Part shown: piece after piece, positions 1 to 63,239 of the stretch
Layout: every line of letters starts with the position of its first letter
How positions within the stretch are numbered: the stretch's first letter is position 1
Assembly: GCF_963921235.1 (NCBI RefSeq)
Contig: NC_086097.1
Coordinates: forward strand, 152,398,001-152,462,000
Source of the DNA: Mobula hypostoma
Taxonomy: Eukaryota
Direction: 5' to 3'
DNA: 64,000 bases
Translations under genes and position numbers: made by a program
The notes under the pieces: generated by a model
Seen by the model: only the letters and a program-made list of their open reading frames with translations
Database searches by the model: none
Told to the model about the DNA's origin: nothing

Positions 1-3000
1 GGGAGAGAGGGGGAGAGAGGGGAGAGAGGGGAGAGAGGGGAGAGAGGGGAGAGGGAGAGAGGGGGGGAGGGAGAGAGGGGGAGGGGGGGAGAGGGGGGAG
101 AGGGGGGGAGAGGGAGAGGGGGAGAGGGAGGGGGGGAGAGGGAGGGGGGAGAGGGAGGGGGGAGGGAGGGGGAGAGGAGGGAGGGAGAGGAGGGGGGAGA
201 GAGAGGGGGGAGGAGGGAGGGGGAGAGAGAGGGGGGAGAGAGGAGGGGGGGAGAGGGGGGGGAGAGAGGGGGGAGAGAGAGGGGGGAGAGAGGGGGAGAG
301 AGGGAGGGGGGGAGAGAGGGGGGGAGAGAGAGGGGGAGAGAGAGGGGGGGGGGAGGGGGGGAGAGAGAGAGGGGGGAGAGAGAGGGGGAGAGAGAGGGGG
401 AGAGAGAGGGGGAGAGAGGGGGGGAGAGGGGGGGGAGAGGGGGGAGAGAGGGGAGAGGGGGGGGAGAGGGGGGGGAGGGGGGAGAGGGGGAGAGGGGGGA
501 GGGGGGGAGAGGGGGGAGGGGGGGGAGAGGGGGGGGGGGGGAGGGGAGGGGGGGAGAGGGGGGAGAGAGGGGAGAGAGGGGGAGAGAGGGGGGAGAGAGG
601 GGGGGGAGGGGGGAGAGAGAGGGGGGGGGAGAGGGGAGGGAGGGGGGAGAGGAGGGAGAGGGGGGGGAGGGGGAGAGGGGGGAGAGGGGGGAGGGGGAGG
701 GAGAGGAGGGAGAGAGGGGGGAGAGAGGGAGAGAGAGGGGGGGGAGAGGGGGGAGAGAGAGGGGGGAGAGAGAGGGGGAGGGAGAGGGGGAGAGAGGGGG
801 AGAGAGGGGGGGGAGAGAGGGAGGGGGAGAGAGGGAGGGAGAGAGGAGGGAGAGAGGGAGGGGAGGGAGAGAGGAGGGGGAGAGAGGAGGGAGAGAGAGG
901 GGGGGAGAGGAGGGGGGAGAGAGGGGGAGAGAGGGGGGAGAGGGGGAGAGAGGGGAGAGAGGGGAGAGAGGGGGGAGAGAGAGGGGGAGAGAGGGGGAGA
1001 GAGGAGGGAGAGAGGGGGAGAGAGAGGGGGAGAGAGGGGGAGAGGGGGGAGAGGGGGGAGAGGGGGGGAGGGGGAGAGGGGGGGAGAGGGGGGAGAGGGA
1101 GGGAGAGGGGGGGGGAGAGGGGGGAGAGGGGGAGAGAGGGGGGGGGAGAGGGGGGGGGAGAGGGGGAGAGAGGGGAGAGAGGGAGAGAGGGGGAGGGGGG
1201 AGGGGGGAGAGAGGGAGGAGGGGGGGGAGAGGGGGGGGGGGGAGGGGGGGGGGGGAGGGGGAGGGGGGAGAGGGGGGAGAGGGGGGGGGGGAGAGGGGGG
1301 GAGAGGGGAGGGGGGAGGGGGGAGAGAGGGGGGAGAGGGGGGGAGAGGGGGGGGGAGAGGGGGAGGAGGGAGAGAGGGGGAGAGAGGGGGAGAGAGGGGG
1401 GGAGGAGAGGGGAGGGAGGGAGGAGGGGAGGGGAGAGAGGGGGGGAGAGAGGGGGAGAGAGAGGAGGGAGAGAGGGGGGGAGGGAGGGGGAGAGGGGGGG
1501 AGAGAGGGGGGAGGAGGGGGGGAGAGAGGGGGGGAGAGAGGGGGGAGAGAGGGGGGAGAGGGGGGGGGAGAGAGGGGGGAGAGAGAGGGGGGAGAGAGGG
1601 AGGGGGAGAGGGAGGGGGGAGAGAGGGGGGAGAGAGAGGGGGGGAGAGAGAGAGAGAGGGGGAGAGAGGGGGGAGAGAGGGGGGGAGAGAGGGGGAGAGA
1701 GGGGGGAGAGAGGGGGAGAGAGGGAGAGAGGGGGGAGAGAGGGGGAGGAGAGGGGGGAGGGAGGGGGAGAGGGGGGAGAGGGGGGAGAGAGAGGGGGGGA
1801 GAGAGGGGGGAGAGAGGAGGGGAGAGAGGGGGGAGGGGGGGAGGAGGGGGGGAGAGGGGGGGGAGGGGGGGAGAGAGGGGGGGGAGAGAGGGGGGGGGAG
1901 AGAGGGGGGGGGGAGAGGGGGGGAGAGAGGGGGGGAGAGAGGGAGAGAGAGAGGGGGAGGGAGAGGGGGGAGAGGGAGGGGAGAGAGAGGAGGGAGAGAG
2001 GGGGGGAGGAGGGGGGGAGAGAGGGGGGGGGGGAGGGGGGGGGAGAGAGGGGGGAGAGAGGGGGGAGAGAGGGGGAGAGAGGGGGAGGAGGGGGGGAGAG
2101 GGGGAGGGAGAGGGGGGAGAGGGGGGGGGGGGAGGGGGGGAGAGGGGGGGGGGGGGGGGGAGGGGGGGAGAGAGGGGGGGGGGGGGGGGGGGGAGGGGGG
2201 AGGGGGGGGGGAGAGAGAGGGGGGGAGAGAGGGGGGAGGGGGGGGAGAGGGGGGAGGGGGGGAGGGGGGGGGGAGAGAGGGGGGAGAGAGAGGGGGGAGG
2301 GGGGGGAGAGAGGGGGGAGAGGAGGGGGGAGAGAGGGGGGGGAGGGGGGGGAGAGAGGGGGGAGAGGGGGGAGAGAGGGGGGGAGGGGGGGGAGGGGGGA
2401 GAGAGAGGGGGAGAGAGAGGGGGGAGGGAGAGGGGGGGGAGAGAGGGGGAGAGAGGGGGAGGGGAGAGAGGGGGGAGAGAGAGGGGGAGAGAGAGAGGGG
2501 GAGAGAGAGGGGGGGAGAGAGAGAGAGGGGGAGAGAGAGAGGGGGGGAGAGAGAGAGGGGGAGAGAGAGGGGGAGAGAGGGGGGGAGAGAGGGGGGGAGA
2601 GAGGGGGGAGAGGGGGGAGAGAGGGGGAGAGGGGGGAGAGAGGGGGGGAGAGAGAGGGGGAGAGAGAGGGGGAGAGAGAGGGGGGAGATAGAGGGGGGGA
2701 GAGAGGGGAGGGAGAGGGGAGAGGGGGGAGGGGGGGAGAGAGGGGGAGAGAGGGGGGAGAGGGGGGGAGAGGGGGGAGAGGGGGAGAGGGAGGAGGGAGA
2801 GAGGGGGGAGAGAGGGGGAGAGAGGGGGGAGAGAGGGGGGAGAGAGGGGGAGAGAGGGGGGGGGAGAGAGGGGGAGAGAGGGGGGAGAGAGGGGGGAGAG
2901 AGAGGGAGGGAGAGAGAGGGGGGAGAGGGGGGGAGAGAGGGGGGAGAGGGGGGGGAGAGAGGGGGAGAGGGGGGAGAGAGGGGGAGAGAGGGGGGGAGAG

Positions 3001-6000
3001 GGGGGAGAGAGGGGGAGAGGGGGGAGAGGGGGAGAGAGGGGGGGAGAGAGGGGGAGAGAGGGGGAGAGAGGGGGGAGAGAGGGGGGGAGGAGAGGGGGGA
3101 GAGGGGGAGAGAGGGAGAGGGGAGAGAGAGGGGGGAGAGAGGGGGGGAGGAGGGAGAGAGGGGGAGAGAGGGGGGGGAGAGAGGGGGGGGAGGAGGGGGA
3201 GAGAGGGGGGAGAGAGGAGGGGGGAGAGAGAGGGGGAGAGGAGGGGGGAGAGAGAGGGGGGGGAGAGAGGGGGGGAGAGAGAGGGGGGGGAGAGGGGGGG
3301 GAGAGAGGGGGAGAGAGAGGGGAGAGAGGGAGAGAGGGGGGGAGAGAGGGGGAGAGAGGGGGAGAGAGGGGAGAGAGGGGGAGAGAGGGGGAGAGAGGGG
3401 GGAGAGGGGGAGAGGGGGAGAGGAGGGGGGGGGAGAGGGGGGAGAGGGAGGGGGAGAGGGGGAGAGAGGGAGGGGGGGGGAGAGGAGGGGGGAGAGGGGG
3501 GGGGAGGAGGGGGGAGAGAGGGGGGGAGAGGAGAGGGGGAGAGAGAGGGGGAGGAGAGGGGGGGAGAGGGAGGGGGAGAGAGAGGGGGGGAGAGAGAGGG
3601 GGGGGGGAGAGGGGGGAGAGAGGGGGGGGAGAGAGGGGGGAGAGGGGGGGGGGAGAGAGGGGGGGAGAGGGGGGAGAGGGGGAGAGAGGGGGAGAGAGGG
3701 GGGAGAGAGAGGGGGGAGAGGGGGGGGAGAGGGGGGGAGGGGGGGGAGAGGGGGGGAGAGGGGGGGAGGGGGAGAGGGGGGGAGAGGGAGAGGGGGAGAG
3801 AGGGGGGAGGGAGAGAGGGGGAGAGAGGGGGGAGAGAGGGGGAGAGAGGGGGGAGAGGGGGAGGGGAGAGGGGGAGAGAGGGGGAGAGAGGGGAGAGAGG
3901 GGGAGAGAGGGGGAGGGGGAGAGGGGGGGGGAGAGAGGGGGGGGGAGGGGGGGGGAGGGGGGAGGGGGGGGAGAGGGGGGGAGAGGGGGGGGGAGAGAGG
4001 AGAGAGAGGGGGGAGGGGGGAGAGGGGGGAGGGGGAGAGGGGGAGAGGGGGGAGAGAGGGGAGAGAGGGGGAGAGGGGGAGAGGGAGAGGGGAGAGGGGG
4101 GAGGGGGGAGAGGGGGGGAGGGGGGAGAGGGGGGGAGAGGGGGAGAGAGGGGGAGAGGGGGGAGAGGGGGGAGGGGGGGGAGGGGGGAGAGAGGGGGAGA
4201 GGGGGGAGAGAGGGGGGAGAGAGGGGGGGGAGGGGGGGAGAGGGGGAGGAGGGGAGGAGGGGGAGAGAGGGGAGGGAGGGAGAGGGGGGAGAGAGAGGGG
4301 GGGAGAGAGGGGGGGAGAGAGAGGGGGGGAGAGAGGGGGGAGAGGGGGGGAGAGAGAGAGGGGGGAGAGAGAGGGGGGGAGAGAGGGGAGAGAGGGGGGA
4401 GAGGGGGAGAGGGGGGAGAGAGGGGGGGAGAGAGGGGGGAGAGAGGGGGGAGGGGAGAGAGGGGGGGAGAGGGGGGAGAGAGAGGGGGGAGAGAGGGGGG
4501 AGAGAGAGGGGGGAGAGAGGGGGGGAGAGAGGGGGGGGGGGGAGAGGGGGGAGAGAGGGGGGGGAGAGGGGGGGGGGAGAGAGGGGGGGAGAGAGGGGGG
4601 GGAGAGAGGGGGAGAGGGGGGGAGAGGGGGGGGAGAGAGGGGGGAGAGGAGAGAGAGAGGGGGAGAGAGGGGGGAGAGAGGGGGAGAGAGGGGGAGAGAG
4701 GGGGGGAGAGAGAGGGGAGAGAGGGAGGAGAGGGGGAGAGAGGGGGGGAGAGAGGGGGAGAGGGGGGGAGAGAGGGGGAGAGAGGGGGGAGGGGGGGGGG
4801 GAGAGGGGGGAGGGGGGGGAGAGGGGGGAGAGAGGGGGGAGAGAGGGGGGAGAGGGGGGGGGGGAGAGAGAGGGGGGGAGAGAGGGGGAGAGAGGGGGGA
4901 GGGAGGGAGAGGGGGGAGAGAGAGAGGGGGAGAGAGAGGGGGAGAGAGAGAGGGAGGGAGAGAGAGGGGGGGAGAGGGGGGGAGAGAGGGGGGAGAGAGG
5001 GGGGAGAGGGGGGGAGGGGGGAGGGGGGGAGAGGGGGGAGAGGGGGGGGAGGGGGGGAGAGGGGGAGGAGGGAGGGGGGGAGGGGGGAGGGGGAGGGGGG
5101 GGGGGGGGGGGAGAGAGAGGGGGGAGAGGGGGGGAGAGAGGGGGGAGAGGGGGAGGGGGGGGAGGGGGGGGGGGGGGAGGGGGGGAGAGAGAGGGGGAGA
5201 GAGAGGGGGGGAGAGGGAGGGGGGAGGAGAGAGGGGGGAGAGAGAGGGGGGAGAGAGGGGGGGGAGAGGGGGGGGGAGAGGGGGGGAGAGAGAGGGGGGG
5301 AGAGAGGGGAGAGAGGGGGGAGAGAGAGAGGGGGGGAGGGAGGGGGGAGAGAGAGGGGAGAGAGAGAGGGGGAGAGAGGGGGGAGAGGGAGAGGGGGAGA
5401 GAGGAGGGGGAGAGAGGGGGGGAGAGGGGAGAGAGGGGGAGAGGGGGGGAGAGGGGGAGAGGGGGAGAGAGAGAGGGGGAGAGAGAGGGGGGAGAGAGAG
5501 GGGGGAGGAGAGGGGGGAGAGGGGGGGAGAGGGGGGGAGAGAGGGGGGAGGGGGAGAGGAGGGAGGGGGGAGAGAGGGGGAGAGAGGGGGGAGGGAGGGA
5601 GGGGAGAGAGGGGGGAGGGGGGGAGAGAGGGGAGAGAGGGGGAGAGAGGGGGGGGAGGGAGGGGGGAGGGAGAGGGGGGAGGGGGAGAGGGGGAGAGAGA
5701 GGGGGAGAGAGGGAGAGAGGGGGGAGAGAGGGGGGGAGAGGGGAGAGGGGGGAGGAGGAGGGGGGAGAGAGGGGGGAGAGAGAGGGGGAGAGAGGGGGAG
5801 AGAGGGGGGGAGAGAGGGGGAGAGAGGGGGGGAGAGAGGGGGGGGAGAGAGGGGGGGAGAGGGGGGGGGGGAGAGAGGGGGGAGAGAGAGGGGGGAGAGA
5901 GGGGGGAGAGAGGGGGGAGAGAGGGGAGAGAGGGGGGGAGAGAGGGGGGGAGAGAGGGGGAGAGGGAGGGGGAGAGAGGGGGGAGAGAGGGGGGGAGAGA

Positions 6001-8175
6001 GGGGAGAGAGAGGGGGAGAGAGGGGGAGAGAGGGGGGAGAGAGGGGGGAGAGAGGGGGAGAGAGGGAGAGAGAGGGGAGAGAGGGGGGGGGAGAGAGGGG
6101 GGGAGAGGGGGGGGAGAGAGGGGGAGAGAGGGGAGAGAGGGAGAGAGGGGGGAGAGGGGGGAGAGGGGGGAGAGAGGGGGAGAGGGGGGAGAGGGGGGGA
6201 GAGAGGGGGAGAGAGGGGGGAGAGAGGGGGAGAGAGGGGGGAGAGAGAGGGGGGAGAGAGGGGGAGAGGGGGGAGAGAGAGGGGGGAGAGGGGGGAGAGA
6301 GGGGAGAGGGGGGAGAGAGGGGGGAGAGAGGGGGGAGAGAGGGGGGGGAGGAGGGAGAGAGAGGGGGGAGAGAGAGGGGGGAGAGAGGGGGGGAGAGAGG
6401 GGGAGAGAGAGGGGGGGGAGAGAGGGGGGAGAGAGAGGGGGGAGAGAGAGGGAGGAGAGAGCGAGAGAGGCGGGAGAGAGGGGAGAGAGAGGGGGGGGGG
6501 GGGGGGGGAGAGAGGGGGGAGAGAGAGGGGGGAGAGAGGGGGGGAGAGAGGGGGGAGAGAGGGGGAGAGAGAGGGGGAGAGGGAGAGAGGGGGAGAGAGG
6601 GGGAGAGAGGGGGAGAGAGGGGGAGAGAGAGGGGAGAGGGGGGAGGGAGAGGGGGAGAGAGGGGGAGAGAGGGGGGGAGGAGAGGGGGAGAGAGAGGGGG
6701 AGAGAGAGGGGGAGAGAGAGGGGGGGAGAGAGAGGGGGGGGAGAGAGGGGGGAGAGAGAGGGGGGGAGGAGAGGGGGGAGAGAGAGGGGGGGAGAGAGGG
6801 GGAGAGAGAGGGGGGAGAGAGAGAGGGGGGAGAGAGAGGGGAGAGAGGGGGAGAGAGAGGGGGAGAGGGGGGGAGAGAGGGGGAGAGAGGGGGAGAGAGG
6901 GGGAGAGAGGGGGAGAGAGGGGGAGAGAGGGGGGAGAGAGGGGGAGAGAGGGGGAGAGAGGGGGAGAGAGGGGGAGAGAGGGGGAGAGAGGGGGAGAGAG
7001 GGGGAGAGAGGGGGAGAGAGAGGGGGGAGAGAGAGGGGGAGAGAGGGGGGGAGAGAGAGGGGGAGAGAGAGGGGGAGAGAGAGGGGGGAGAGAGAGGGGG
7101 GGAGAGAGAGGGGGAGAGAGAGGGGGAGGGAGAGGGGGGAGAGGGGGAGAGGGGGGAGAGAGGGGGAGAGAGGGGGAGAGAGGGGGGGGAGGGGGGGAGA
7201 GGGGGGAGAGAGGGGGGTGGGAGAGAGGGGGTGGGAGAGAGGGGGAGGGAGAGAGAGGGGGAGAGAGGGGGGAGAGGGGGGAGAGAGGGGGAGAGAGAGG
7301 GGGAGAGAGAGGGGGGAGAGAGAGGGGGAGAGAGAGAGGGGGAGAGAGAGAGAGAGGGGCGGGGAGAGAGAGGGGGGGAGAGAGGGGGGAGAGAGAGAGG
7401 GGGGAGAGAGGGGGGGAGAGAGAGGGGGGGAGAGAGAGGGGAGGGGGAGAGAGGGGGGGGAGAGAGAGGGGGGGAGAGAGAGGGGGGAGAGAGGGGGGGG
7501 GAGAGAGGAGGGGGAGAGAGAGGGGGGGAGAGAGAGAGAGGGGGAGAGAGAGGGGGGAGAGAGAGAGGGGGAGAGAGAGAGGGGGAGAGAGAGGGGGAGA
7601 GAGAGGGGGGAGAGAGAGGGGGAGAGAGAGGGGGGAGAGAGAGGGGGGGAGAGAGGGGGGAGAGAGGGGGGAGAGAGGGGGGAGAGAGAGGGGGGGAGAG
7701 AGAGGGGGGGAGAGAGAGGGGGGAGAGAGGGGGGGGAGAGAGGGGGGAGAGAGAGAGGGGGAGAGAGGGGGGGAGAGAGGGGGGAGAGAGAGGGGGGAGA
7801 GAGAGGGGTGGGGAGAGAGGGGTGGGAGAGAGGGGGGGAGAGGGGGAGAGAGGGGAGAGAGGGGGAGAGAGGGGGAGAGAGGGGAGAGAGGGGGGAGAGA
7901 GGGGGAGAGAGGGGGGGAGGGGGGGGGGGGGAGGGGGGGAGGGGGGGAGAGGGGGGGGAGAGGGGGGGGAGAGGGAGGGGGGGAGAGGGAGGGGGAGAGG
8001 GAGGGGGGGAGGAGGGGGGGGAGAGGAGGGGGGAGAGAGAGGGGGAGAGAGAGGGGGGGAGAGAGAGGGGGGAGAGAGAGGGGGGAGAGAGAGGGGGAGA
8101 GAGAGGGGGGGAGAGAGAGGGGGGGGGAGAGAGGGGGGAGAGAGGGGGGGGGGGGGAGGGGGGGGGGGGGGGGGG

Positions 8176-8212
<37 letters not shown>

Positions 8213-8226
8213 GGGGGGAGAGGGGG

Positions 8227-8279
<53 letters not shown>

Positions 8280-8320
8280 GGGGGGGGAGAGGGGGGAGAG
8301 GGGGAGAGGGGGAGAGGGGG
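1..8320 (+). repeat. Very long G/A-only polypurine low-complexity tract (GA dinucleotides and G runs), open at the window start
   Basis: The + strand is almost only G and A, with a handful of T/C. A locally regular (GGGGAGAGAG)n run lies at about 6870-7020 and pure G runs at about 8150-8280. Confidence 0.97.
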
Positions 8321-9199
8321 AAAGAACAAGAAATTAACCTTAAGGGGCACAATATATTTCAGGGACCTCGGTTCAAATCTTGCCTTGAATATTGGAATTC
8401 AAAAACAAGTATATGCAACTTGGATTATTGTTTTTAAAAATTTCCATATACCTGTTGTCACTAATCAGAAATTATTCATAATTTGGCAACCCTCAACGTG
8501 GAGGTGGGGAGTAATCAAATTTAAGATTGTGAGGATTGGATTAAAGTCGATGGGATGAACTGATAACTATAGCTACCTATGCTGTTAACATGTGTATAAG
8601 TCACTAATATTGTTGGTACACAATGATATATTCCAGAGCTGGCATTGTGACTCAGAGGAAAGCTTGTTGCTTAATTTTGACTCTTAAAAATGGAAAAGTG
8701 TTCTACTCCCCAAGGTCAGTTAAATGATGATAATTCATCAAAAGGCGGGATGTTCTACATGTGCAATAATAATTCTATACCAGGAATTGGAAATTAGTAG
8801 ATTTTGATTGATGGTCAGAATAAATATATTCTAGTTTTGTGTGAAATGCCAGATAAACATTAAAAGCTATGGGTAGTGCACTGCAAGGTAATACCATCTG
8901 ACAGAATTCTATTATTGGTTTTCCCATTTGTTTTACATAGAAGAGAAACTGCTATGGATAATTTATGGACTGATTGTACTGCATCAGCTCCACAGTGTGC
9001 TGCACAGTCAGGAGAAGCAAATTACATTTCTTCTTTCTGAGGGAACATTGATTCCACACCACAAGAGGTATTCAATATTCTTTTTGTTCATCTGCACAGA
9101 TTTCATCTCCTCACTAGTTGCCAGCAAGTAACCTTGTGCAACCTACTTGCAGCTGTGGAGGAGGAAACTGCCATGAAAAAATACCTTAAAAAGATAAAA

Positions 9200-9733: not shown

Positions 9734-9957
9734 TGGGATGGCATGACAGTGTAGCAATTAGTGTAATGCTTTTACAGTGCACACTGGATTCAATTTCTGC
9801 AATTGTTCACTCTCCCTGTGACTGTGTGGGTTTCCTCCATGTGCTCCAGTTTCCTCCCACATTTTAAAGTTGTGCGGGTTAGGCGGTTAATTGGTCACAT
9901 GGGTAAATTAGGTGGCATGGTCTCGTTCGGCCAGAGGGCTAGCTGCTGTGTGTATCC
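9734..9957 (+). mobile_element. tRNA-derived V-SINE (HE1-like)
   Basis: A degenerate A/B-box head is followed by the V-domain-like core gtgggtttcctccatgtgctccagtttcctcccaca and a LINE-like tail. Confidence 0.8.
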
Positions 9958-10229
9958 ATTTTCACTAAGTGACTTTAAAAGTAGGTGTGGCTAAAAGATA
10001 ATTTAGCCCAGTACTGGAAGTGGAAACACTACTATTTCAACTTTTCATCTTTGCAGCCTCAGTTACTAGAGCAGAACCTACAAGATGCAGAAACCTGAAG
10101 AATTGGTATTAACCATCTGCCTGTACAGGTTCTCCACAATCCTGAAGAAGCAGACCATGATAAAATAAACACATTGTTATGAATTTAAATTTGGAAGCAA
10201 GTTAAACTAAACCAGTATAGCACCTACAT

Positions 10230-10316
10230 CCAGACCTGGTGAAAGGTCACAACCTGAAATGTTGACTGTTCATTCCCCTCCCTAGATGCTGCTGGACTTC
10301 CTCCAGCATTTTATTT
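10230..10316 (+). mobile_element. 87-bp Penelope-derived mini-insertion (degenerate hammerhead plus tail) with 15-bp TSD
   Basis: gacCTGGTGAaaggtcacaacctGAAAtgttgact...gatgctgctgg...ttcctccagcatttt is homologous to 63147-63233. It is flanked by gtatagcacctacat (10215-10229) and gtatagcacctatat (10317-10331). Confidence 0.8.
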
Positions 10317-10513
10317 GTATAGCACCTATATTTTCTGAAAGATTCATGTGTGTCTATATAGTGGTGCATGTCTTCTGGGTGCATACAGTGCTGGGGGTTG
10401 GTGTATTTTCCAATGTGATTGTTCACAAGGTTACTCTAGAAAGCAGATGCAGTGCCAATAGACTGAGGTTATTATATCTCTATACCAGTTTAGGTGAAAC
10501 AAAATCTACCAAA

Positions 10514-11665
10514 AATAGACATTTACAATAGCTGCAGGAGTAGGCCATTCAGCCCTTCGAGCCAGAACCACCATTTACCGTGATCATGGCTGATCATCCA
10601 CAATCAGTACCCTTTTCCTGCCTTCTTCCCATATTCCTTCACTCCACTATCTTTAAGAGCTCTATCTAACTCTTTCTTGAGAGAATCCAGAGAATTGGCC
10701 TCCACTGCCTTCCAAGGCAGAGCATTCCACAGAACCACAACCCTCTGTGTGGAAAAAGTTTTTCCTCAACTCCGTTCTAGATTGTCTACCCCTTATTCTT
10801 AAACTGTGGCCTCTGGTTCTGGACTCCCCCAACATCAGGAACATGTTTCCTGCCTCTAGCGTGTCCAATCTCTTAATAATCTTATATGTTTCAATCAGAT
10901 CCCCTCTCATCCTTCTACATTCCAGTGTATACAACCCCAGTCACTCCAATCTTTCAACATATGATAGTCCCGCCATCCTGGGAATTAACCTCATGAACCT
11001 ACACTGCATTCCCTCAATAGCTAGAATGTTCTTCCTCCAATTTGGAGACCAAAACTGTACACAATATTCCAGGTGTGGTCTCACCAGGGCCCTGTACAAA
11101 TGCAGAAGGACCTCTTTGCACCTATACTCAATTCTCCTTATGAACGCCAGCATGCCATTAGCTTTCTTCACTGCCTGCTGTACCTGCATGCTTACTTTCA
11201 GTGACTGATGAACAAGGACACCTAGATCTCATTGTACTTCCCCTTTTCCTAACTGAACACCATTCAGATAGTAATCTGCCTTCCTGATCTTGCCATCAAA
11301 GTGGATAACCTCACATTTATCCACATTAAACTGCATCTGCCATGTATCTGCCCACTCACCCAACCTGTCCAAGTCACCCTGCATTCTCATAACATCCTCC
11401 TCACATTTCACACTGGCACCCAGCTTTGTGTCATCTGCAAATTTGCTAATGTTACTTTTAATCCCTTCATCTAAATCATTAATATATATTGTAAATAGCT
11501 GTGGTCCCAGCACCAAGCCTTGTGGTACCCCACTAGTCACTGCCTGCCATTCTGAAAAGGACCCATTAATCCCTATTCTTTGTTTCCTGTCTGCCAACCA
11601 ATTTTCTATCCATGTCAGTACCATACCCCCAATACCATTTGCTCTAATTTTGCACACTAACCTTC
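10514..11665 (-). mobile_element. 5'-truncated CR1-clade LINE (RT C-terminal half plus 3' UTR)
   Basis: ORFs 11229-11735, 10941-11189 and 10662-10934 give SGVPQGLVLGP, KFADDTK, LVRPHLEYCVQFWSP and RRMRGDLIETYKI. The CR1 3' end (ggagtaggccattc on +) is present. Confidence 0.93.
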
Positions 11666-11708
11666 TATCCCAAACAAGAGAAAATCTGCAGATATTGTAA
11701 AACCAACG

Positions 11709-11742
<34 letters not shown>

Positions 11743-11790
11743 GCTGGAGGGAACCCAGCAGGACAGGCAGCATCTGTGGAAGAGAGTAAA

Positions 11791-11827
11791 CACTCAGTGT
11801 TTTGGGCTGAGACCCTTCATCAGGACT
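11791..11827 (-). ncRNA. Degenerate hammerhead ribozyme motif in the PLE 3' UTR
   Basis: The - strand reads agtc-CTGATGA-agggtctcagccc-AAAA-cactgagtg. GAAA has become AAAA and the GUC site is lost. Confidence 0.6.
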
Positions 11828-11892
11828 GGAGAAAAAAAGATAAGGTGTCAGAGTAAGAAGGTGGGGGAGAGGAGGAAGAAATACAAGGTAGT

Positions 11893-11989
11893 TACAGACA
11901 GATCAGTCATGATCTTATTGAAAGGTGGGGCAGGCTCGATGGGCCGGATAGCCTACTCCTGTTCCTATTTCGTATGTTCTTATGTTCTA
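11893..11989 (+). mobile_element. Short CR1 3'-end insertion inside the PLE 3' UTR
   Basis: gatcagtcatgatcttattgaa...gcctactcctgttcctatttcgtatgttcttatgttcta is a CR1 3' stem-loop plus microsatellite tail. Confidence 0.8.
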
Positions 11990-12193
11990 GTAGGTAATGG
12001 GTGAAACCAGGTGAGGGGGAGGGGTGAAGTAAAGAGTTGGGAAGTTGAATGGTGAAAGAGAAAAATGGCTGGAAAGGGGGAATCTGATAAAGGCATGGAA
12101 GAAAGGGAAGTGGGAAGAGCACCAGAGGAAGGTGATGGACAGGTAAGGAGATAAGGTGAGAGAGAAATGGGAATGGGCAATGGTGAAGGAGAG

Positions 12194-12245
12194 ACCATAA
12201 GACAAAGGAGCAGAAGTAGGCCATTCGGTCCATCGAGTCTGCTCC
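12194..12245 (-). mobile_element. 52-bp CR1 3'-end insertion with GAGAG TSD
   Basis: accataagacaaaggagcagaagtaggccattcgg...ctgctcc is flanked by gagag at 12189-12193 and 12246-12250. Confidence 0.8.
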
Positions 12246-14211
12246 GAGAGGTGGGGGTATTAACTGGAAGTTCAAGAAATTGACATTCATAAAAGATATC
12301 AATAGATGAGCTGTCTCCAGAGATAGACAGAGTGATCAAGAAAGGGCAGGAAGGTGTCAGAAATGGACCAAGTAAATTTGAAGGCAGGGTAGAAGTTGGC
12401 TCCAAAGTTGAAGATGTTGACGAGCTTAGCATGAGTGCAAGAAGCAGCATCAATGCAGTTACTGATGCAGCGTAGGAACAAGGGTAGAGTGATACCAGTA
12501 TAGGCTTGGAACATAGACTGTTCCATGAAGCCGACAAAAAGGCAGGCATATCTGGGACCCATGCGGGTGCCCATGGCTAAACCTTTTGCTTGAAGGAAGT
12601 GGGAGGAGTCAAAGGAGAAATTATTGAGAGTGAGGACATTCCGCTAGACAATGGAGGGAAACTAGTTGGGTCTGTTGTCCAGAAGGAAATGGCAAGCTTT
12701 GAGGCCTTCCTGATAAGCTATGGAGGTGCATACAGACCTTAGTACAGACCTCATCCATAGTAAAAATAAGATGATCAAGTCCAGGGAACTTGAAATCATT
12801 GAAATCATATGAAGCGTCACAAATGTAGATAGGAAGGGACTGAACCGGGGGAATCAAACTGAATTGAGGTATGCAGATATGTTTGATGGGGCAGGAACAA
12901 GGGGAAGCAATGGGTCTACATGGACAGGCAGGTTTGTGGACCTTGGGTAGAAGGTAGAAACAGGAGGCACAGGATGCGGGAACTATGAGGTTGCTAACAG
13001 TGGATGGGAGCTCCCCAGAGTTAACAAGATCAGTGATCGTGTGGGAGACAATGGTCTGATGCTCTTTAGTGGAGTCCTGTTCGAGAAGTAAGGAAGAGGT
13101 GGTGTCTGAGAGTTGTTGCTGGGCCTCAGTAAGATAGAGGTCAGTATGCCAGACTACTACGGCACCCCCCCCCCCCCCACCTTATCTGCAAGTTTGATGG
13201 TGAGGTTAGGGTTAGTGCGGAGGGAATAGAAAGCAGAGCATTTGGAAGGAGTGAGGTTGGAATTGAAGAGAGGAGTAGTGAAATTGAGATGGTTGATGTC
13301 CTGTCGGTAGTTAGAAATGAAAAGATCTAGAGCAGGCAGAAGACCAGAGTGGAGCATCCAGGAAGAGGCAGATAGTTGCAGACAGGAGAAGAGGTCATTG
13401 ATGAAGAATGGAGAGTCCTTGCCAATGAAGTAGGCACAGAGATGGAGGTGGCGGAAGAAGAGCTCAGCGTCATGGAGGGTGCAGATCTCACTGACATGTA
13501 GGCGCATGTGAGGCCCTTACTGAGGGCAGGACATTCTGCCTCAGAGATGGGAAGGTCACAAGGGATGGTGAAGACCCAGCATGGATGAGAGCATGGATCA
13601 GAGGGTGGGATGGGGTTGTCCAAGGAGAGGAGAGGGCTGGGGTGTTTAGGGATTGTAGAGTGAGAGGAAGATGGAGTCTCCGAGGATCCAGGAGCCGGTG
13701 GTGGGACCTGAGAGAGATGTTGTGGGGTAAGGAGAGTCCTTGCCAATGAAGTAGGCACAGAGATGGAGGTGGCGGAAGAAGGGTTCCAGCGGCAGCACGT
13801 GAAGTCCTGGCCTGGAGGCGCTCTCGGTCAAGGTCCAGGCTTTACCAGCAATCTATTGATTATCGTAATTTGAAGACACTATTCATATATTTGGATTTCA
13901 AAGTGATATTCTGTGCTTGCTTGTTAAAGGTGTAAATAGATTGATGCAGTGAAAGTTGTTGTGAGCACAAGTGATTTCAGACTGTCATGTACATGCCAGA
14001 TATAAATCACTTTGTTTCTTCATGAAGTGCCTGCTTTATAGGCAGTGTCCATGAATGATGGTGTTAGTGAATTCCTTTTTCAAACATGTTCCTATATACA
14101 GCCATGGTTGCACTTGATATCTGCTGTAATTCATTGGCAGTAAACTGTTCAAGACATCAGAATCAAATTCAGATTTAAAATCATTGGAAAAAAAATAATG
14201 AAGTAGTGTTA

Positions 14212-14432
14212 AAAGCAGGAGAAAATCTGCAGATGCCGGAAATGCAAGACAGACACACACAGACACACAATGCTGGAGGAACCCAGCAGGCCACGCAGTA
14301 GCGATGGAAAAGACTAAACAATCTCATTTTGGGCCGAGACCCTTCTTCAGCATTAGTGAAGAGTCTTGGCCCATAACATCGATTGTTTACTCCTTTCCTG
14401 GCCTGCTGAGATCCTCTAACATTTTGTGAGTG
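14212..14432. mobile_element. Head-to-head inverted pair of PLE 3' (hammerhead-plus-tail) modules
   Basis: The left arm (-) ends ...gggccgagacccttcttcag. The right arm (+) reads gtgaagagtcttggcccataacatcgattgttt...ggcctgctgagatcctctaacattttg. Confidence 0.75.
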
Positions 14433-14812
14433 AGTTGGTGCTCATGGGATGGTACATTGTTCATTCAGAAATATGATGGTGATGGGGGGAGAAAAGGCTC
14501 ATGGTAGTATTTAAATAACATAAGAATGTAAGTCTTTCTTTTCTTTTATTCACATCAAGCTACCTTCTATGGCACAGGTGGAGGTTGGAATGACTTTTTG
14601 AGCACGGTTGGAGATAATTATACTTTCTAAACATCTTCCTCAAATGGCTGTGGAGATAAATTGTACTGAATGAAGAGTTTGGTTGAACAGCTATAAACTC
14701 AATTCATCTCAAACAGATTTTACAATGTACTTAGCAAGGTCCAGAACACACTGTACAGAGAATTATAATAACTGACTATGGGAAGAACAATGGGAATAAG
14801 TAAAACCTCAGT

Positions 14813-44234: not shown

Positions 44235-44437
44235 TAGACACAAGTCTATAAATCTTGAGCAATGTACACATAGCACTGAAGGAACTCGGCATGTCATGCA
44301 GCATCCGTGGAGGGAAATGAACAGTCAGCATTTCAGGCCGACACATTCCCTAGTCCTGATGAAGGACCTTGTCCTGAAACACTGGCTGTTCAGTTCATTC
44401 CATAGATGCTGCCTGGCCTGCTGAGTCCCTCCAGCTA
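44235..44437. mobile_element. Second head-to-head inverted pair of PLE hammerhead-plus-tail modules
   Basis: The left arm (-) reads ...ggaactcggc...gcagcatc...acagtcagcatttcaggccgacac. The right arm (+) reads agtcCTGATGAaggaccttgtcctGAAAcactggct...gatgctgcctggcctgctgagtccctccagc. Possible TSD ttgtaacatatgca/ttgtaacatgtaca. Confidence 0.8.
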
Positions 44438-44477
44438 TTGTAACATGTACACTGGTTTGTTAGTTGTTGACAATATA

Positions 44478-46379: not shown

Positions 46380-49730
<3,351 letters not shown>

Positions 49731-52700
49731 CCGAAGGGGGCAGGTGGCAAGGACGTGGCTGGACTGGCCGCAATATAGACACTCGCCCGCTTTCATTCTC
49801 CGGAGTCGTTTAGTGGGAGAAAGGCGGTTCCGTCCCAGCTGCGTGGGTTCCGCTCCTGGGGCGGTCGAAGCGGCAGGGCTGGGAGCTACTCGGGGTGCAG
49901 GAGGAGGAGAGAGGCTTGTTCTGGCGGGAGGTGGTAAAGAGTGCCGAGAAGTGGCCAAGGGTCATGGATGACCAGTTCTCTCTCTATGGCGCTCTCGGAG
50001 GTGATTGTCCATCCTGGTGGCCAGGGAGATCAGGGAATCCAGGCTGTCAGAGTTGTCTCTCACCGCCAACTCGTCCTTCACCAGGTCGTTGAGTCCATTC
50101 AGAAAAACCTCCTGGAGTGGCTCATCGTTCCACCCTGAGTCGGTCGCCAACGTCTGGAACTCCACTGAATATTCAGCAACACTGCGGGAGCCCTGGCAGA
50201 GAATGAGTAGATGCTTGGCAGCGTCTTTAACACGGACGGGGTGATCGAAGATTTTTCTCATCTCCGTGATAAAACTGGTGAAAGAGAAGCAGATATCAGA
50301 TTGGTCGTCCCAAACTGCTGTGGCCCCGCTAATGCGCTCCCCCGTAGCAACCCCATGACAAGCAATTTTAGACTTACCTGTGGAGTAAGTCGACAACTGC
50401 TGTTCAAACACCAGGGAGCACTGAAGGACGAACATAGAACATAGAACATAGAATAGTACAGCACAGTACAGGCCCTTCGGCCCACAATGTTGTGCCAACC
50501 CTCAAATCCTGCCTCCCATATAAGCCCCCACCTTAAATTTCTCCATATACCTGCCTAGTAGTTTCTTAAACTTCACTAGTGTATTTGCCTCCACCACTGA
50601 CTCAGGCAGTGCATTCCACGCACCAACCACTCTCTGAGTCAAAAACCTTCCTCTACTGTCCCCCTTGAACTTCCCACCCCTTACCTTAAAGCCATGTCCT
50701 CTTGTATTGAGCAGTGGTGCCCTGGGGAAGAGGCGCTGGCTATCCACTCTATCTATTCCTCTTATTATCTTGTACACCTCTATCATGTCTCCTCTCATCC
50801 TCCTTTTCTCCAAAGAGTAAGGCCCCAGCTCCCTTAATCTCTGATCATAATGCATACTTTCTAAACCAGGCAGCATCATGGTAAATCTCCTCTGTACCCT
50901 TTCCAATGCTCCCACATCCTTCCTATAGTGAGGTGACCAGAACTGGACACAGTACTCCAAGTGTGGCCTAACCAGAGTTTTATACAGCTGCATCATTACA
51001 TCGCAACTCAAAAACTCTATCCCTCGACTTATGAAAGTTAACACCCCATAAGCTTTCTTAACTACCCTATCCACCTGTGAGGCAACTTTCAGGGATCTGT
51101 GGGCATGTACCCCCAGATCCCTCTGCTCCTGCACACTACCAAGTATCCTGCCATTTACTTTGTGCTCTGCCTTGGAGTTTGTCCTTCCAAAGTGTACCTC
51201 CTCACATTTCTCTGGGTTGAACTCCATCTGCCAATTCTCAGCCCACTTCTGCATCCAATTAATGTCTCTCTGCAATCTTTGACAATCCTCTACACTATCT
51301 ACAACACCACCAACCTTTGTGTCATCTGCAAACTTGCCAACCCACCCTTCTACCCCCACATCCAAGTCGTTAATAAAAATCACAAAAAGTAGAGGTCCCA
51401 GAACAGATCCTTGTGGGACACCACTAGTCACAATCCTTCAATCTGAATGTACTTCCTCCACCACGATCCTCTGCCTTCTGCAGGCAAGCCAATTCTGAAT
51501 CCACCTGGCCAAACTTCCCTGAATCCCATGCCTTCTAACTTTCTGAATAAGCCTACCGTGTGGAACCTTGTCAAATGCCTTACTAAAATCCATATAGATC
51601 ACATCCACTGCACTACCCTCATCTATATGCCTGGTCACCTCCTCAAAGAACTCTAACAGGCTTGTTAGACACGATCTGCCCTTCACAAAGCCATGCTGAC
51701 TGTCCTTGATCAGACCATGATTCTGTAAATGCCTATAGATCCTATCTCTAAGAATCTTTTCCAACAGCTTTCCCACCACAGACGTAAGACTCACTGGTCT
51801 ATAATTACTCGGACTATCCCTACTACCTTTTTAGAACAAGGGGACAACATTCGCCTCCCTCCAATCCTCCGGTACCAATCCCGTGGACAACGAGGACATA
51901 ATGATCCTAGCCAGAGGCTCAGCAATCTCTTCTCTCGCCTCGGGGAACAGCCTGGGGAATATTCCGTCAGGCCCCGGGGACTTATCTGTCCTAATGTATT
52001 TTAACGACTCCAACACCTCCTCTCCCTTAATATCAACATGCTCCAGAACATCAACCTCACTCATATTGTCCTCACCATCATCAAGTTCCTTCTCACTGGT
52101 GAATACCGAAGAGATGTATTCATTGAGGACCTTGCTCACTTCCACAGCCTCCAGGCACATTTTCCCACCTTTATCTCTAATGGGTCCTACCTTCACTCCT
52201 GTCATCCTTTTCTTCTTCACATAATTGAAGAATGCCTTGGGGTTTTCCTTTACCCTACTTGCCAAGGCCTTCTCATGCCCCCTTCTTGCTCTTCTCAACC
52301 CCTTCTTAAGCTCCTTTCTTGCTTCCCTATATTCCTCAATAGACCCATCTGATCCTTGCTTCCTAAACCTCATGTATGCTGCCTTCTTCCACCTGACTAG
52401 ATTTTCCACCTCACTTGTCACCCATGGTTCCTTCACCCTACCATTTGTTATCTTCCTCACCGGGACAAATTTATCCCTAACATCCCGCAAGAGATCTCTA
52501 AACTTTGACCACATGTCCATAGTACATTTCCCTGCAAAAACATCATCCCAATTCACACCTGCAAGTTCTAGCCTTATAGCCTCATAATTTGCCTTTCCCC
52601 AATTAAAAATTTTCCTGTGCTCTCTGATTCTATCCTTTTCCATGATAATGCTAAAGGCCAGGGAGCGGTGGTTACTGTCCCCCAGATGCTCACCCACTGA

Positions 52701-60521: not shown

Positions 60522-62846
60522 ATGTCAGCGTTGTCAGAACAGATGCAGAGGAGTCAGAGAAGCAGGGAGAATGAAACACACCCTTTCTGCGAAGACAAGG
60601 TAGTTGTAAGAGTGTGTCGACCCCCTCCCCCCTCTGATCCCAGCTCTCATCCGTGTCGGGTCTTTACCATCCCCTCCGACCCTCAACTGTTGGAGGCAGA
60701 ACGCTCTGTCCTCAATAAGGGCCTCACGTTTGTCCCCCTTCGCCCACACCTCAGCGAGTTCCGTGTTTGCCATGATGTGGAACTTTTCTTCCGCCGTCTC
60801 CGTCTCCGAGCCTACTTCTTCGGCAAGGACTCTTCCACCCCCACCGATGACCCCTTCTCCCGTCTTCAACCCTCCTCTTCTTCATGGACACCCCGCTCTG
60901 GTCTTGTGCCTGCTCTGGATCTCTTTATTGCTAACTGCCGACGGGACATCAACCGTCTCAACTTCACCGCACCTTGTCCCCATTCCAACCTCACTCCTTC
61001 GGAACGCTCGGCTCTCCACTCCCTCCGCACTAATCCTAACCTTATTATTAAACCCGCCGATAAGGGGGGTTCTGTTGTAGTCTGGCGCACTGACCTCTAC
61101 CTTGCCGAGGCACAGCGACAACTCGCGGATACCTCCTCTTATTTACCCCTCGATCGTGACCCCACTAAGGAGCACCAGGCCATGGTTTCCCACACCATCA
61201 CCGACTTTATCCGCTCAGGGGATCTCCCATCCACTGCTACCAACCTTATAGTTCCCACACCCCGCACTTCCCGTTTCTACCTCTTACCCAAGATCCACAA
61301 ACCTGCCTGTCCTGGCAGACCTATTGTCTCAGCTTGCTCCTGCCCCACCGAACTCGTTTCTGCATACCTCGACACGGTTTTATCACCCCTTGTTCAATCC
61401 CTTCCGACCTATGTTCGTGACACTTCTCACGCTTTTAAACTTTTCGATGATTTTAAGTTCCCTGGCCCCCACCGCTTTATTTTCGCCATGGATGTCCAGT
61501 CCTTATATACTTCCATCCCCCATCAGGAAGGTCTCAAAGCTCTACGCTTCTTTTTGGATTCCAGACCTAATCAGTTCCCCTCTACCACCACTCTGCTCCG
61601 TCTAGCGGAATTAGTCCTTACTCTTAATAATTTCTCCTTTGGCTCCTCCCACTTCCTCCAAACTAAAGGTGTAGCTATGGGCACCCGTATGGGTCCTAGC
61701 TATGCCTGCCTTTTTGTTGGGATTGTGGAACAATCTATGTTCCGTGCCTATTCTGGTATCTGTCCCCCACTTTTCCTTCGCTACATCGACGACTGCATTG
61801 GCGCTGCTTCCTGCACACATGCAGAACTCATTGACTTTATTAACTTTGCCTCCAACTTTCACCCTGCCCTCAAGTTTACCTGGTCCATTTCCGACACCTC
61901 CCTCCCCTTTCTAGATCTTTCAGTCTCTGTCTCTAGAGACAGCTTATCCACTGATGTCTACTATAAGCCTACTGACTCTCACAGCTATCTGGACTATTCC
62001 TCTTCTCACCCTATCTCTTGCAAAAACGCCATCCCCTTCTCGCAATTCCTCCGTCTCCGCCGCATCTGCTCTCAGGATGAAGCTTTTCATTCTAGGACGA
62101 GGGAGATGTCTTCCTTTTTTAAAGAAAGGGGCTTCCCTTCCTCCACTATCAACTCTGCTCTTAAACGCATCTCCCCCATTTCATGTACATCTGCTCTCAC
62201 TCCATCCTCCCGCCACCCCACTAGGAATAGGGTTCCCCTGGTCCTCACCTACCACCCCACCAGCCTCCGGGTCCAACATATTATTCTCCGTAACTTCCGC
62301 CACCTCCAACGGGGTCCCACCACTAAGCACATCTTTCCCTCCCCCTCTCTCTCTGCATTCCGCAGGGATCGCTCCCTACACAACTCCCTTGTCCATTCGT
62401 CCCCCCCATCCCTCCCCACTGATCTCCCTCCTGGCACTTATCCGTGTAAGCGGAACAAGTGCTACACATGCCCTTACACTTCCTCCCTTACCACCATTCA
62501 GGGTCCCAAACAGTCCTTCCAGGTGAGGCAACACTTCACCTGTGAGTCGACTGGGGTGATATACTGCGTCCGGTGCTCCCGATGTGGCCTTTTATATATT
62601 GGCGAGACCCGACGCAGACTGGGAGACCGTTTTGCTGAACATCTACGCTCTGTCCGCCAGAGAAAGCAGGATCTCCCAGTGGCCACACATTTTAATTCCA
62701 CATCCCATTCCCATTCTGACATGTCTATCCACGGCCTCCTCTACTGTAAAGATGAAGCCACACTCAGGTTGGAGGAACACCTTATATTCCGTCTGGGTAG
62801 CCTCCAACCTGATGGCATGAACATCGACTTCTCTAACTTCCGCTAA
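60522..62846 (+). CDS. PLE reverse transcriptase + GIY-YIG endonuclease ORF (774 aa; the first ~32 aa come from flanking DNA)
   Basis: IKPADKG, YLLPKIHK...GRPIVS, MDVQSLYTSI, QTKGVAMG, RYIDDC, the Cys linker CKRNKCYTC, and VIYCVRC...LYIGET...RFAEH. Confidence 0.92.
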   Translation: MSALSEQMQRSQRSRENETHPFCEDKVVVRVCRPPPPSDPSSHPCRVFTIPSDPQLLEAERSVLNKGLTFVPLRPHLSEFRVCHDVELFFRRLRLRAYFFGKDSSTPTDDPFSRLQPSSSSWTPRSGLVPALDLFIANCRRDINRLNFTAPCPHSNLTPSERSALHSLRTNPNLIIKPADKGGSVVVWRTDLYLAEAQRQLADTSSYLPLDRDPTKEHQAMVSHTITDFIRSGDLPSTATNLIVPTPRTSRFYLLPKIHKPACPGRPIVSACSCPTELVSAYLDTVLSPLVQSLPTYVRDTSHAFKLFDDFKFPGPHRFIFAMDVQSLYTSIPHQEGLKALRFFLDSRPNQFPSTTTLLRLAELVLTLNNFSFGSSHFLQTKGVAMGTRMGPSYACLFVGIVEQSMFRAYSGICPPLFLRYIDDCIGAASCTHAELIDFINFASNFHPALKFTWSISDTSLPFLDLSVSVSRDSLSTDVYYKPTDSHSYLDYSSSHPISCKNAIPFSQFLRLRRICSQDEAFHSRTREMSSFFKERGFPSSTINSALKRISPISCTSALTPSSRHPTRNRVPLVLTYHPTSLRVQHIILRNFRHLQRGPTTKHIFPSPSLSAFRRDRSLHNSLVHSSPPSLPTDLPPGTYPCKRNKCYTCPYTSSLTTIQGPKQSFQVRQHFTCESTGVIYCVRCSRCGLLYIGETRRRLGDRFAEHLRSVRQRKQDLPVATHFNSTSHSHSDMSIHGLLYCKDEATLRLEEHLIFRLGSLQPDGMNIDFSNFR

Positions 62847-63239
62847 GGCCCCACCTCCCCCTCGTACCCCATCTGTTACTTATTTTTATGCACACATTCT
62901 TTCTCTCACTCTCCTTTTTCTCCCTCTGTCCCTCTGAATATACCTCTTGCCCATCCTCTGGGTCCCCCCCCCCACCTCCTTGTCTTTCTTCCCGGACCTC
63001 CTGTCCCATGATCTTCTTGTATCCCCTTTTGCCTATCACCTGTCCAGGTCTTGGCTCTATCCCTCCCCCTCCTGTCTTCTCCTATCATTTTGCATCTCCC
63101 CCTCCCCCTCCAGCTTTCAAATCCCTTACTCACTCTTCCTTCAGTTAGTCCTGACGAAGGGTCTCGGCCTGAAACGTCGACTGCGCCTCTTCCTATAGAT
63201 GCTGCTTGGCCTGCTGCGTTCACCAGCAACTTTGATGTG
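60618..63239 (+). mobile_element. Young 5'-truncated Penelope-like element (probably Neptune clade) with 16-bp TSD
   Basis: Flanked by agttgtaagagtgtgt (60602-60617) and agttgtcagagtgtgt (63240-63255). Contains an RT + GIY-YIG frame and a 3' UTR with a hammerhead. Confidence 0.96.
63147..63182 (+). ncRNA. Minimal type-I hammerhead ribozyme with intact core
   Basis: AGTC-CTGACGA-AGG-gtctcgg-CCT-GAAA-C-GTC^GACT. Stem I is AGUC/GACU, stem II is AGG/CCU, a palindromic ACGU replaces stem III, and cleavage is predicted after C63178. Confidence 0.88.

What the first reader, a model, noticed from the sequence alone, without database searches (positions are those of the whole stretch)
10215..10331. 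87-bp stand-alone hammerhead-plus-tail retroposon with its own 15-bp TSD
Seen: the insert starts at hammerhead stem I, holds only the ribozyme motif and the short tail, and is bounded by gtatagcaccta(c/t)at. That TSD is about the same length as the one on the coding PLE. Inference: the module is mobilised by the PLE RT/GIY-YIG as a minimal non-autonomous, retrozyme-like unit, or reverse transcription tends to stop at the ribozyme.
Basis: partly seen in the sequence, partly recalled or inferred. Interest (0 to 1): 0.7.

Follow-up and report, generated by a model that had tools for sequence, protein, structure and literature searches.

The report
Run-off stub of Penelope jumping gene
This 87-base insertion is real but is a decayed end piece of a Penelope-type jumping gene, one of many in this genome that begin within a few bases of the front edge of a small ribozyme motif, likely because the copying enzyme starts inside the element's RNA and runs off its front end, which would expose an early step in how these poorly understood elements copy themselves.

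Summary
Confirmed: 87 bp (10230-10316) between a 14/15 TSD; it starts at hammerhead (HHR) stem I and is the 3' terminus of an old Penelope-like (PLE) subfamily, not of the window's coding PLE. Its ribozyme is decayed. In 1.66 Mb of sampled genome, 5' ends peak at the HHR's front edge (34 of 141 copies at risk end within 20 nt; p 4e-10), not at the cleavage site, so it is not smooth truncation. But short copies share no diagnostic changes and scatter across all subfamilies, so there is no separate retrozyme-like family. In the young subfamily the module is also the 5' end of the ORF-bearing RNA; 6 of 9 two-module insertions stop twice at nearly the same point, three of them away from the HHR. 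Best reading: the RT starts internally just behind the HHR, runs off the RNA's 5' end, and this strong-stop-like cDNA integrates alone. Whether that end is a transcription start is untested. The scan has reached this reading before, on this and other genomes. Side finding: two tandem arrays with GT/AG joints, likely copied from back-spliced circles.

The parts
10215..10229 (+). 5' copy of target-site duplication (15 bp)
   Evidence: 14 of 15 identical to 10317-10331; null 3 of 3000
10230..10316 (+). 87-bp insert: terminal module of an old PLE subfamily, from -6 relative to hammerhead C3 to about +89; carries a private 8-nt deletion
   Evidence: 72 of 87 identical to subfamily C consensus; deletion pattern once in genome
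10231..10268 (+). decayed minimal type I hammerhead motif: stem I 10231-10235 with 10264-10268, core 10236-10242 (A6 to G), stem II 10244-10246 with 10253-10255, GAAA 10256-10259, predicted cut position after 10263
   Evidence: sequence aligned to consensuses; no hammerhead fold; motif type as in PMC4209133
10285..10311 (+). hairpin behind the hammerhead, just ahead of the shorter of the two common 3' ends (inferred RT start region)
   Evidence: fold; 3' end histogram
10317..10331 (+). 3' copy of target-site duplication
60618..63239 (+). context: 5'-truncated coding PLE of the young subfamily Y (RT, CX4CxxC linker, GIY-YIG), intact-looking hammerhead at 63146-63183, 16-bp TSD; same kind of element, not this copy's donor subfamily
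11680..13800 (-). context: old, broken PLE of an A/B/C-type subfamily ending in the same module (approximate borders); a separate insertion

Best explanation
The insert is a TSD-flanked, decayed copy of the terminal hammerhead module of an endonuclease-bearing Penelope-like element, likely made when the element's reverse transcriptase started inside its own RNA just behind the hammerhead and ran off that RNA's 5' end about 95 bases later. Shown: in intact young elements this module lies directly in front of the ORF as well as at the 3' end; 3' ends of copies fall in two classes (about +90 to +95 and +130); 5' ends peak at -10 to +9 (mode -4 in the young subfamily), upstream of the predicted cut site at +28, so the template was uncut; short copies belong to every subfamily. 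Inferred: the GIY-YIG domain cut the target with a 15-bp stagger; RT began at the nearer internal start in the 5' pLTR; the short, strong-stop-like cDNA integrated alone. The same cDNA has other fates elsewhere: head-to-head pairs, or a jump from the RNA's 5' end to a 3' end, giving module-ORF piece-module insertions. Untested: whether the RNA end is a transcription start or a processed or trimmed end. The copy is dead and left no detectable progeny.
For: Peak: among 154 non-inverted copies (score >=40) in 1.664 Mb, 12 of 141 end at 0..+9 and 22 of 129 at -10..-1, against 2 of 146 at +20..+29; 34 ends in the 20-nt peak vs 35 in the flanking 100 nt, p 4e-10. Inverted arms: 21 of 40 at risk end at -10..-1. 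Controls: real long copies cut at random gave no peak, 0 of 282 misplaced into it; flanks of short copies are not pyrimidine-rich UTR (0 of 39 vs 74 of 83); 13 of 39 short copies have a TSD >=10 (null 25 of 1500) and 11 of the 13 put the 5' end at -9..+4. Young subfamily, query not covering the HHR front: 9 of 30 loci end at -4..-2. Module precedes the ORF start. Of 28 distinct tail-to-ORF loci, 11 are module-ORF piece-module; in 6 of the 9 two-module cases an outer arm stops at nearly the same base as the inner joint (-5/-5, -4/-4, -4/-3, -13/-13, -15/-15, -44/-42 to -37), with 0-8 extra A at several joints. Internal RT start at two sites flanking the tail, need for sequence downstream of them, both-strand priming and use of uncut RNA were shown in vitro for the anole Poseidon (PMC11167929, parts 1-2 of 4 read). 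Initiator-like match with +1 at -4 in 5 of 6 consensuses and TATA-like words at -33/-34 in 4 of 6 (consensus motifs recalled).
Against: No RNA evidence: only contigs were listed, which cannot show RNA ends. The initiator-like word occurs by chance about once per 55 nt in these UTRs; subfamily Y lacks a TATA-like word at the right distance; an extra G before the end is seen in only 4 of 12 ends at -4. In D. virilis the transcript starts 46 bp before a 75-bp intron whose 3' end maps to helix I (PMC2377424; PMC4209133), so there the start is well upstream; here too -4/-3 is the AG of an acceptor-like site. 3 of 9 two-module loci do not show matched ends. The matched-end evidence comes from the young subfamily, not from this copy's subfamily; no module-ORF continuation was found in the unbiased sample (0 of 298, young ORF as query). 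This copy starts at -6, 2 bases before the young mode. The anole work is on a Poseidon, not a Neptune-type element. Background truncation accounts for roughly a fifth of copies in the peak (inference).
Confidence: 0.62

Rival explanations
1. RT starts in the 3' pLTR of a long RNA and is blocked at the front edge of the folded or protein-bound hammerhead, or at the splice-acceptor-like AG that coincides with it.
For: The modal end (-4) is exactly the first base of stem I and the AG of an acceptor-like site; the anole hammerhead folds only with protein (PMC11167929); half of young copies read through (15 of 30).
Against: Few ends at the 3' foot of the structure, where a block would be met first (7 in +20..+39 against 34 in -10..+9; the expectation is recalled knowledge); paired stops at -13, -15 and -44 in single insertions lie outside the motif.
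Confidence: 0.15
2. This one copy is an ordinary random 5' truncation that happens to fall at the hammerhead.
For: 5' truncation is common in PLEs (PMC8557442); background rate about 0.02-0.05 per 10 nt; a single old copy cannot be assigned.
Against: Rate at -10..-1 is 0.17 per 10 nt, several times background, with no alignment artefact.
Confidence: 0.15
3. A separate minimal non-autonomous (SINE- or retrozyme-like) family amplified from its own master and mobilised in trans.
For: About 23 short solo copies per Mb with similar ends and TSDs; non-autonomous PLE derivatives exist (PMC8557442; bioRxiv 10.64898/2026.07.22.740005).
Against: 29 short vs 50 long old copies: best of 265 column tests p 0.009 (threshold 1.9e-4); nearest neighbour short for 4 of 29 (10.5 expected); 32 label changes on a 122-row tree vs 33.1 shuffled (only 90 columns); short copies occur in subfamilies Y, A, C, D, E; best other genomic hits are 76-87% identical (40 of 353 candidates scored); the deletion is unique.
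Confidence: 0.05
4. A monomer cut out by hammerhead self-cleavage and circularised, as in retrozymes.
For: It carries a type I hammerhead motif.
Against: A cleaved RNA would begin at +28; 2 of 146 end at +20..+29; the insert includes both sides of the cut site once, with no repeat; single minimal hammerheads showed no cleavage in vitro (PMC4209133).
Confidence: 0.02

Closest known systems
5'-truncated insertions, solo and inverted pLTRs and optional 30-40 bp tail of EN+ Penelope-like elements, Neptune/Nematis-type linker (PMC8557442, passages; PMC3846280, passages)
   Same: TSD-flanked terminal fragment; two 3' end classes; head-to-head pairs; partial tandems with the module before the ORF; RT + CX4CxxC linker + GIY-YIG in the coding relative.
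   Different: Those passages describe variable truncation and ascribe solo pLTRs without TSDs to recombination or deletion; here solos carry TSDs and their 5' ends pile up at one place.
Minimal type I hammerheads of metazoan PLEs (Cervera and De la Pena 2014, PMC4209133, passages)
   Same: Same motif layout, reported as widespread single motifs in vertebrate genomes with few inside full PLEs.
   Different: This copy's core is mutated; the paper's passages do not map the borders of the dispersed motifs.
Anole Poseidon PAc in vitro (Frangieh et al. 2024, PMC11167929, parts 1-2 of 4 read)
   Same: RT starts internally at two sites that bound the tail, near the start of the ORF; uncut RNA is the template; both strands are primed.
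   Different: The parts read do not describe run-off products integrated alone or a jump to the RNA's 3' end; different PLE clade.
Non-LTR retrozymes (PMC7229834, passages; bioRxiv 10.64898/2026.07.22.740005, parts 1-3 of 5)
   Same: Non-coding, type I hammerhead, PLE pLTR origin; monomers are reported.
   Different: Retrozymes are tandem repeats with a hammerhead in each unit, expressed as cleaved circles, forming their own families; this is a single unit, begins upstream of the cut site and has no family of its own.
Minus-strand strong-stop DNA of LTR retrotransposons and retroviruses (recalled)
   Same: Works like it: short first cDNA from an internal start to the RNA's 5' end, then transfer to a 3' end.
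   Different: Target-primed and integrated directly; no tRNA primer or integrase; the joints seen have little or no homology.

Membership tests
EN+ PLE terminal fragment | Homology to the 3' terminus of elements encoding RT and C-terminal GIY-YIG | tested here: met
   same module ends the coding PLE and old PLEs; 72 of 87 to subfamily C
EN+ PLE terminal fragment | Target-site duplication | tested here: met
EN+ PLE terminal fragment | 3' end at one of two sites bounding the optional tail | tested here: met
   short copies 13 of 39 at +90..+99 and 13 of 39 at +130..+134; this copy in the first class
Neptune/Nematis-type PLE | CX2-5CxxC linker between RT and EN | tested here: met
   present in the young coding element (definition); not checked for subfamily C
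Neptune clade | RT phylogeny | not tested
   no tree against reference PLEs was built
Active minimal hammerhead | Intact core, G10.1-C11.1, palindromic loop III | tested here: not met
   met in the young consensus
Non-LTR retrozyme | Tandem units each with a complete type I hammerhead | tested here: not met
   single unit
Non-LTR retrozyme | RNA ends or joints at the self-cleavage site | tested here: not met
   5' end at -6; cut site at +28; 2 of 146 ends there
Non-LTR retrozyme | Expressed as circular RNA | not testable with these tools
   only contigs, no run on record as RNA
Independent non-autonomous family | Shared diagnostic changes or own clade | tested here: not met
Retroposed insertion | Empty site in a relative | tested here: inconclusive
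   one contig of run X22 covers 9878-10215 and stops aligning at the TSD start; its last 30 letters were not shown
Run-off (strong-stop-like) copy | 5' end equals the RNA's 5' end | not testable with these tools
   indirect support from matched stops; no raw RNA reads

The most novel reading that the evidence does not exclude
PLEs copy themselves by an LTR-like two-step route without being LTR elements: RT must start in the 5' pLTR, makes a target-primed strong-stop cDNA of 95-135 nt, and then jumps to a 3' end; tens of thousands of solo hammerhead stubs such as this one are failed jumps. When the template is instead a back-spliced PLE circle, the same RT rolls round it and writes a retrozyme-like tandem array in one step, a direct route for the birth of animal retrozymes.
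Probability: 0.4. Interest if true: 0.75.

Novelty: new variant of a known kind. Interest (0 to 1): 0.42.

Why it matters
The copy itself is dead. The population it belongs to bears on an open question: how PLEs, the sister group of telomerase, turn an RT start near the 5' end of the RNA into insertions and why they form pLTRs, inversions and tails. A fixed stop at about -4 gives a base-level prediction for 5' RACE or CAGE and for the existing in vitro system, and it would explain why genomes hold so many single minimal hammerheads outside full elements without invoking a new mobile family.

Tried and rejected
Rfam scan of the window at gathering threshold: 0 hits. Folding: neither this motif nor the young one gave a significant z-score, so folding energy is uninformative for minimal hammerheads. 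Window's coding PLE as donor: rejected, other subfamily. Old PLE at 11.7-13.8 kb as part of the same insertion: rejected, opposite strand and the TSD closes the insert. RNA runs: no RNA holder listed. Empty site: inconclusive; no joint across the insert among those shown, and most loose ends were not printed. Unmodelled-UTR and alignment artefacts for the peak: rejected. Cap-derived extra G, a lead from earlier notes: 4 of 12 ends at -4, 6 of 34 ends at -4 or further upstream, pooled and partly pre-selected loci, inconclusive. Module-ORF continuation in the unbiased sample with the young ORF as query: 0 of 298. Literature: no PLE paper returned for Penelope/strong-stop/pLTR/strand transfer, at least 3 of 4 terms (1 unrelated paper); Penelope + hammerhead + shark returned 1 review; listings showed no title on fixed-ended stubs or back-spliced PLE circles, but one search listed only 15 of 372 papers. 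Subscription papers, Repbase entries and supplements were not seen and may describe such repeats. Look-up of earlier findings by sequence gave nothing.

Full report
Observation. A 15-bp repeat (14 of 15 identical) lies at 10215-10229 and 10317-10331 and encloses 87 bp; 3 of 3000 random pairs of the same geometry reached that length. The insert starts at the 5' strand of hammerhead stem I. Offsets below count from C3 of the core as 0, so the insert starts at -6 and the predicted cut lies before +28. The motif is decayed (stem I mismatch, A6G, G10.1A, C17U, loop III palindrome lost, numbering recalled), does not fold as a hammerhead and is not found by Rfam. The coding element at 60618-63239 has RVT_1 (below the curated cut-off) and GIY-YIG matches, a CX4CxxC linker, which PMC8557442 gives as a mark of Neptune and Nematis, and a 16-bp TSD. 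The host is a 3.48-Gb genome; its repeats look like those of a cartilaginous fish (recalled, untested).

What it belongs to. A genome search with the insert scored 40 of 353 candidates; apart from itself, hits were 76-87% identical, many continuing upstream into a pyrimidine-rich PLE 3' UTR. I took 16 blocks, 1.664 Mb including the window, at arbitrary places on 13 contigs. A module profile found 198 hits at E<1e-3 in the first 1.064 Mb and none in reversed sequence. Clustering gave six subfamily models, Y (young) and A-E. The insert is closest to C (72 of 87) and far from Y (62 of 85), so the window's coding PLE is the same kind of element but not its donor subfamily.

There were 298 module 3' ends; 72 were dropped for score under 40 or block edge, leaving 154 non-inverted copies and 72 arms of head-to-head pairs. 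Among the 154, 12 of 141 at risk end at 0..+9 and 22 of 129 at -10..-1, against 2 of 146 at +20..+29 and about 0.02 per 10 nt from -41 to -200. The 20-nt peak holds 34 ends, the flanking 100 nt 35 (p 4e-10). Inverted arms peak harder (21 of 40 at -10..-1). Controls: 380 artificial truncations of 38 real long copies, 370 recovered, gave no peak and 0 of 282 were misplaced into it; the flanks of short copies are ordinary DNA, not unmodelled UTR; 13 of 39 short copies have a TSD of 10 or more (null 25 of 1500) and 11 of those put the end at -9..+4. In the young subfamily, where ends can be read to the base, a query covering only +21..+89 returned 30 loci, of which 9 end at -4..-2, 15 run on beyond -260 and 6 end elsewhere. 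Extrapolated, about 81,000 short solos (rough, 16 blocks). So truncation is not smooth, and the peak is not at the cut site. 3' ends fall in two classes, with and without the tail, as described for PLEs.

Failed. For 29 short and 50 long copies of A-C no column passed correction (best p 0.009 of 265 tests), and short copies were nearest neighbours of short copies in 4 of 29 cases against 10.5 expected. On a tree of 39 short and 83 long copies the label changed 32 times against 33.1 shuffled; short copies sit inside the Y, D and E groups (90 columns, poorly resolved among old copies). The insert's own 8-nt deletion matches once in the genome and its nearest sampled relative is 21% away.

Why the ends pile up. 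In intact young elements the module runs straight into the ORF start: it is the element's 5' leader as well as its 3' end. A search with the tail-to-ORF joint gave 30 loci, 28 distinct. Twelve are ordinary partial tandems, five have short leaders or internal rearrangements, and eleven read module, ORF piece, module. In nine of these there are two modules; the inner one starts at -4 (4 cases), -5, -13, -15, -44 or -98, joined without a splice signal and in several cases with 1-8 extra A. In six of the nine an outer arm stops at almost the same base as the inner joint, including -13/-13, -15/-15 and -44/-42 to -37; in three it does not. TSDs of 12-17 bp close six of eight tested. A stop point that is the same within an insertion but differs between insertions is a property of the template molecule, which is what run-off from a 5' end, followed by a jump to a 3' end, predicts. 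The anole PLE protein starts RT internally at two sites near the ORF start, needs sequence beyond them, primes on both strands and uses uncut RNA (PMC11167929). Put together (inference): the first cDNA is only 95-135 nt long, and it integrates alone (this finding), as a head-to-head pair, or after a jump.

What is not settled. No RNA end was seen. An initiator-like word puts +1 at -4 in 5 of 6 consensuses, but such words are frequent here; TATA-like words sit 29-30 nt ahead in four subfamilies but not Y, and the extra-G test is inconclusive. The same bases form a splice-acceptor-like AG, and in D. virilis the intron ends at helix I with the start further upstream. The end could thus be a start site, a trimmed or processed end, or, less likely, a block to RT. 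The matched-end evidence comes from Y, not from subfamily C. The empty site could not be shown.

Side result. The other two of the eleven loci are multimers: L218-L220 (310-bp unit, four joints, units 0-1 bases apart, 13-bp TSD read by eye) and L213 (278-bp unit, two joints, no TSD found). Both join an ORF position followed by GT to a pLTR position preceded by a pyrimidine run and AG, and their outer ends do not match the joint (at the L218 donor some reference copies have AT instead of GT; the L213 acceptor AG is in 11 of 14 copies). None of the nine two-module joints is of that type. This suggests rolling-circle copying of back-spliced circles; two cases only.

Comparison and verdict. The object is a known kind, a terminal PLE fragment with a minimal hammerhead. 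It fails the retrozyme tests. The fixed 5' end and run-off reading were not found in the papers searched. Papers seen: PMC11167929 parts 1-2 of 4; the bioRxiv preprint parts 1-3 of 5; passages of PMC8557442, PMC3846280, PMC2377424, PMC7229834, PMC6155905, PMC4209133; no supplements. Earlier notes of this scan reach the same reading on this and other genomes; I had written mine down before reading them, and they are not independent support. New variant of a known kind; interest 0.42.

Noticed in passing
L218-L220 (G000:C2:157815137-157818892) and L213 (G000:C50:8150892-8154027): Tandem arrays of 310 bp and 278 bp made of hammerhead module plus ORF start, with GT/AG splice-type joints and outer ends unrelated to the joint: likely rolling-circle copies of back-spliced PLE circles, i.e. 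retrozyme-like arrays born in one step.
   Followed up: partly
L212, L221, L222, L224, L225, L229, L233, L235, L237: Module-ORF piece-module insertions with non-splice joints; L221 has an 8-A run at the joint, as from an oligo(A)-tailed premature RNA end.
   Followed up: yes
window 14259-14440, 44270-44440; many loci: Head-to-head pairs of the module joined near the hammerhead's front edge; 72 arms among 226 scored copies.
   Followed up: partly
L002 and L006, 150-300 bases upstream of the match: Old-subfamily copies with an ORF-start-like piece joined to the last 60-70 bases of the UTR, the same permuted layout as in the young subfamily.
   Followed up: no
L232 and L240: Two young elements share the same internal duplication (ORF position 883 back to 672), a small sub-lineage.
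   Followed up: no
window 1-8340: About 8.3 kb of almost pure G/A purine repeat on one strand (GC skew and AT skew near 1.0); satellite or assembly artefact.
   Followed up: no
window 46400-50500, minus strand: Broken LTR-retrotransposon-like gag/pol frames (Gypsy-like by recall), next to a CR1-type LINE at 50500-53300.
   Followed up: no
window 10317-10323: The first TSD bases resemble the element's next bases (5 of 7), a possible short primer-template match at the 3' junction; one case.
   Followed up: no
window 9780-9945 and 10520-10900: Other high-copy repeats flank the insert, judged by contig depth in related organisms.
   Followed up: no
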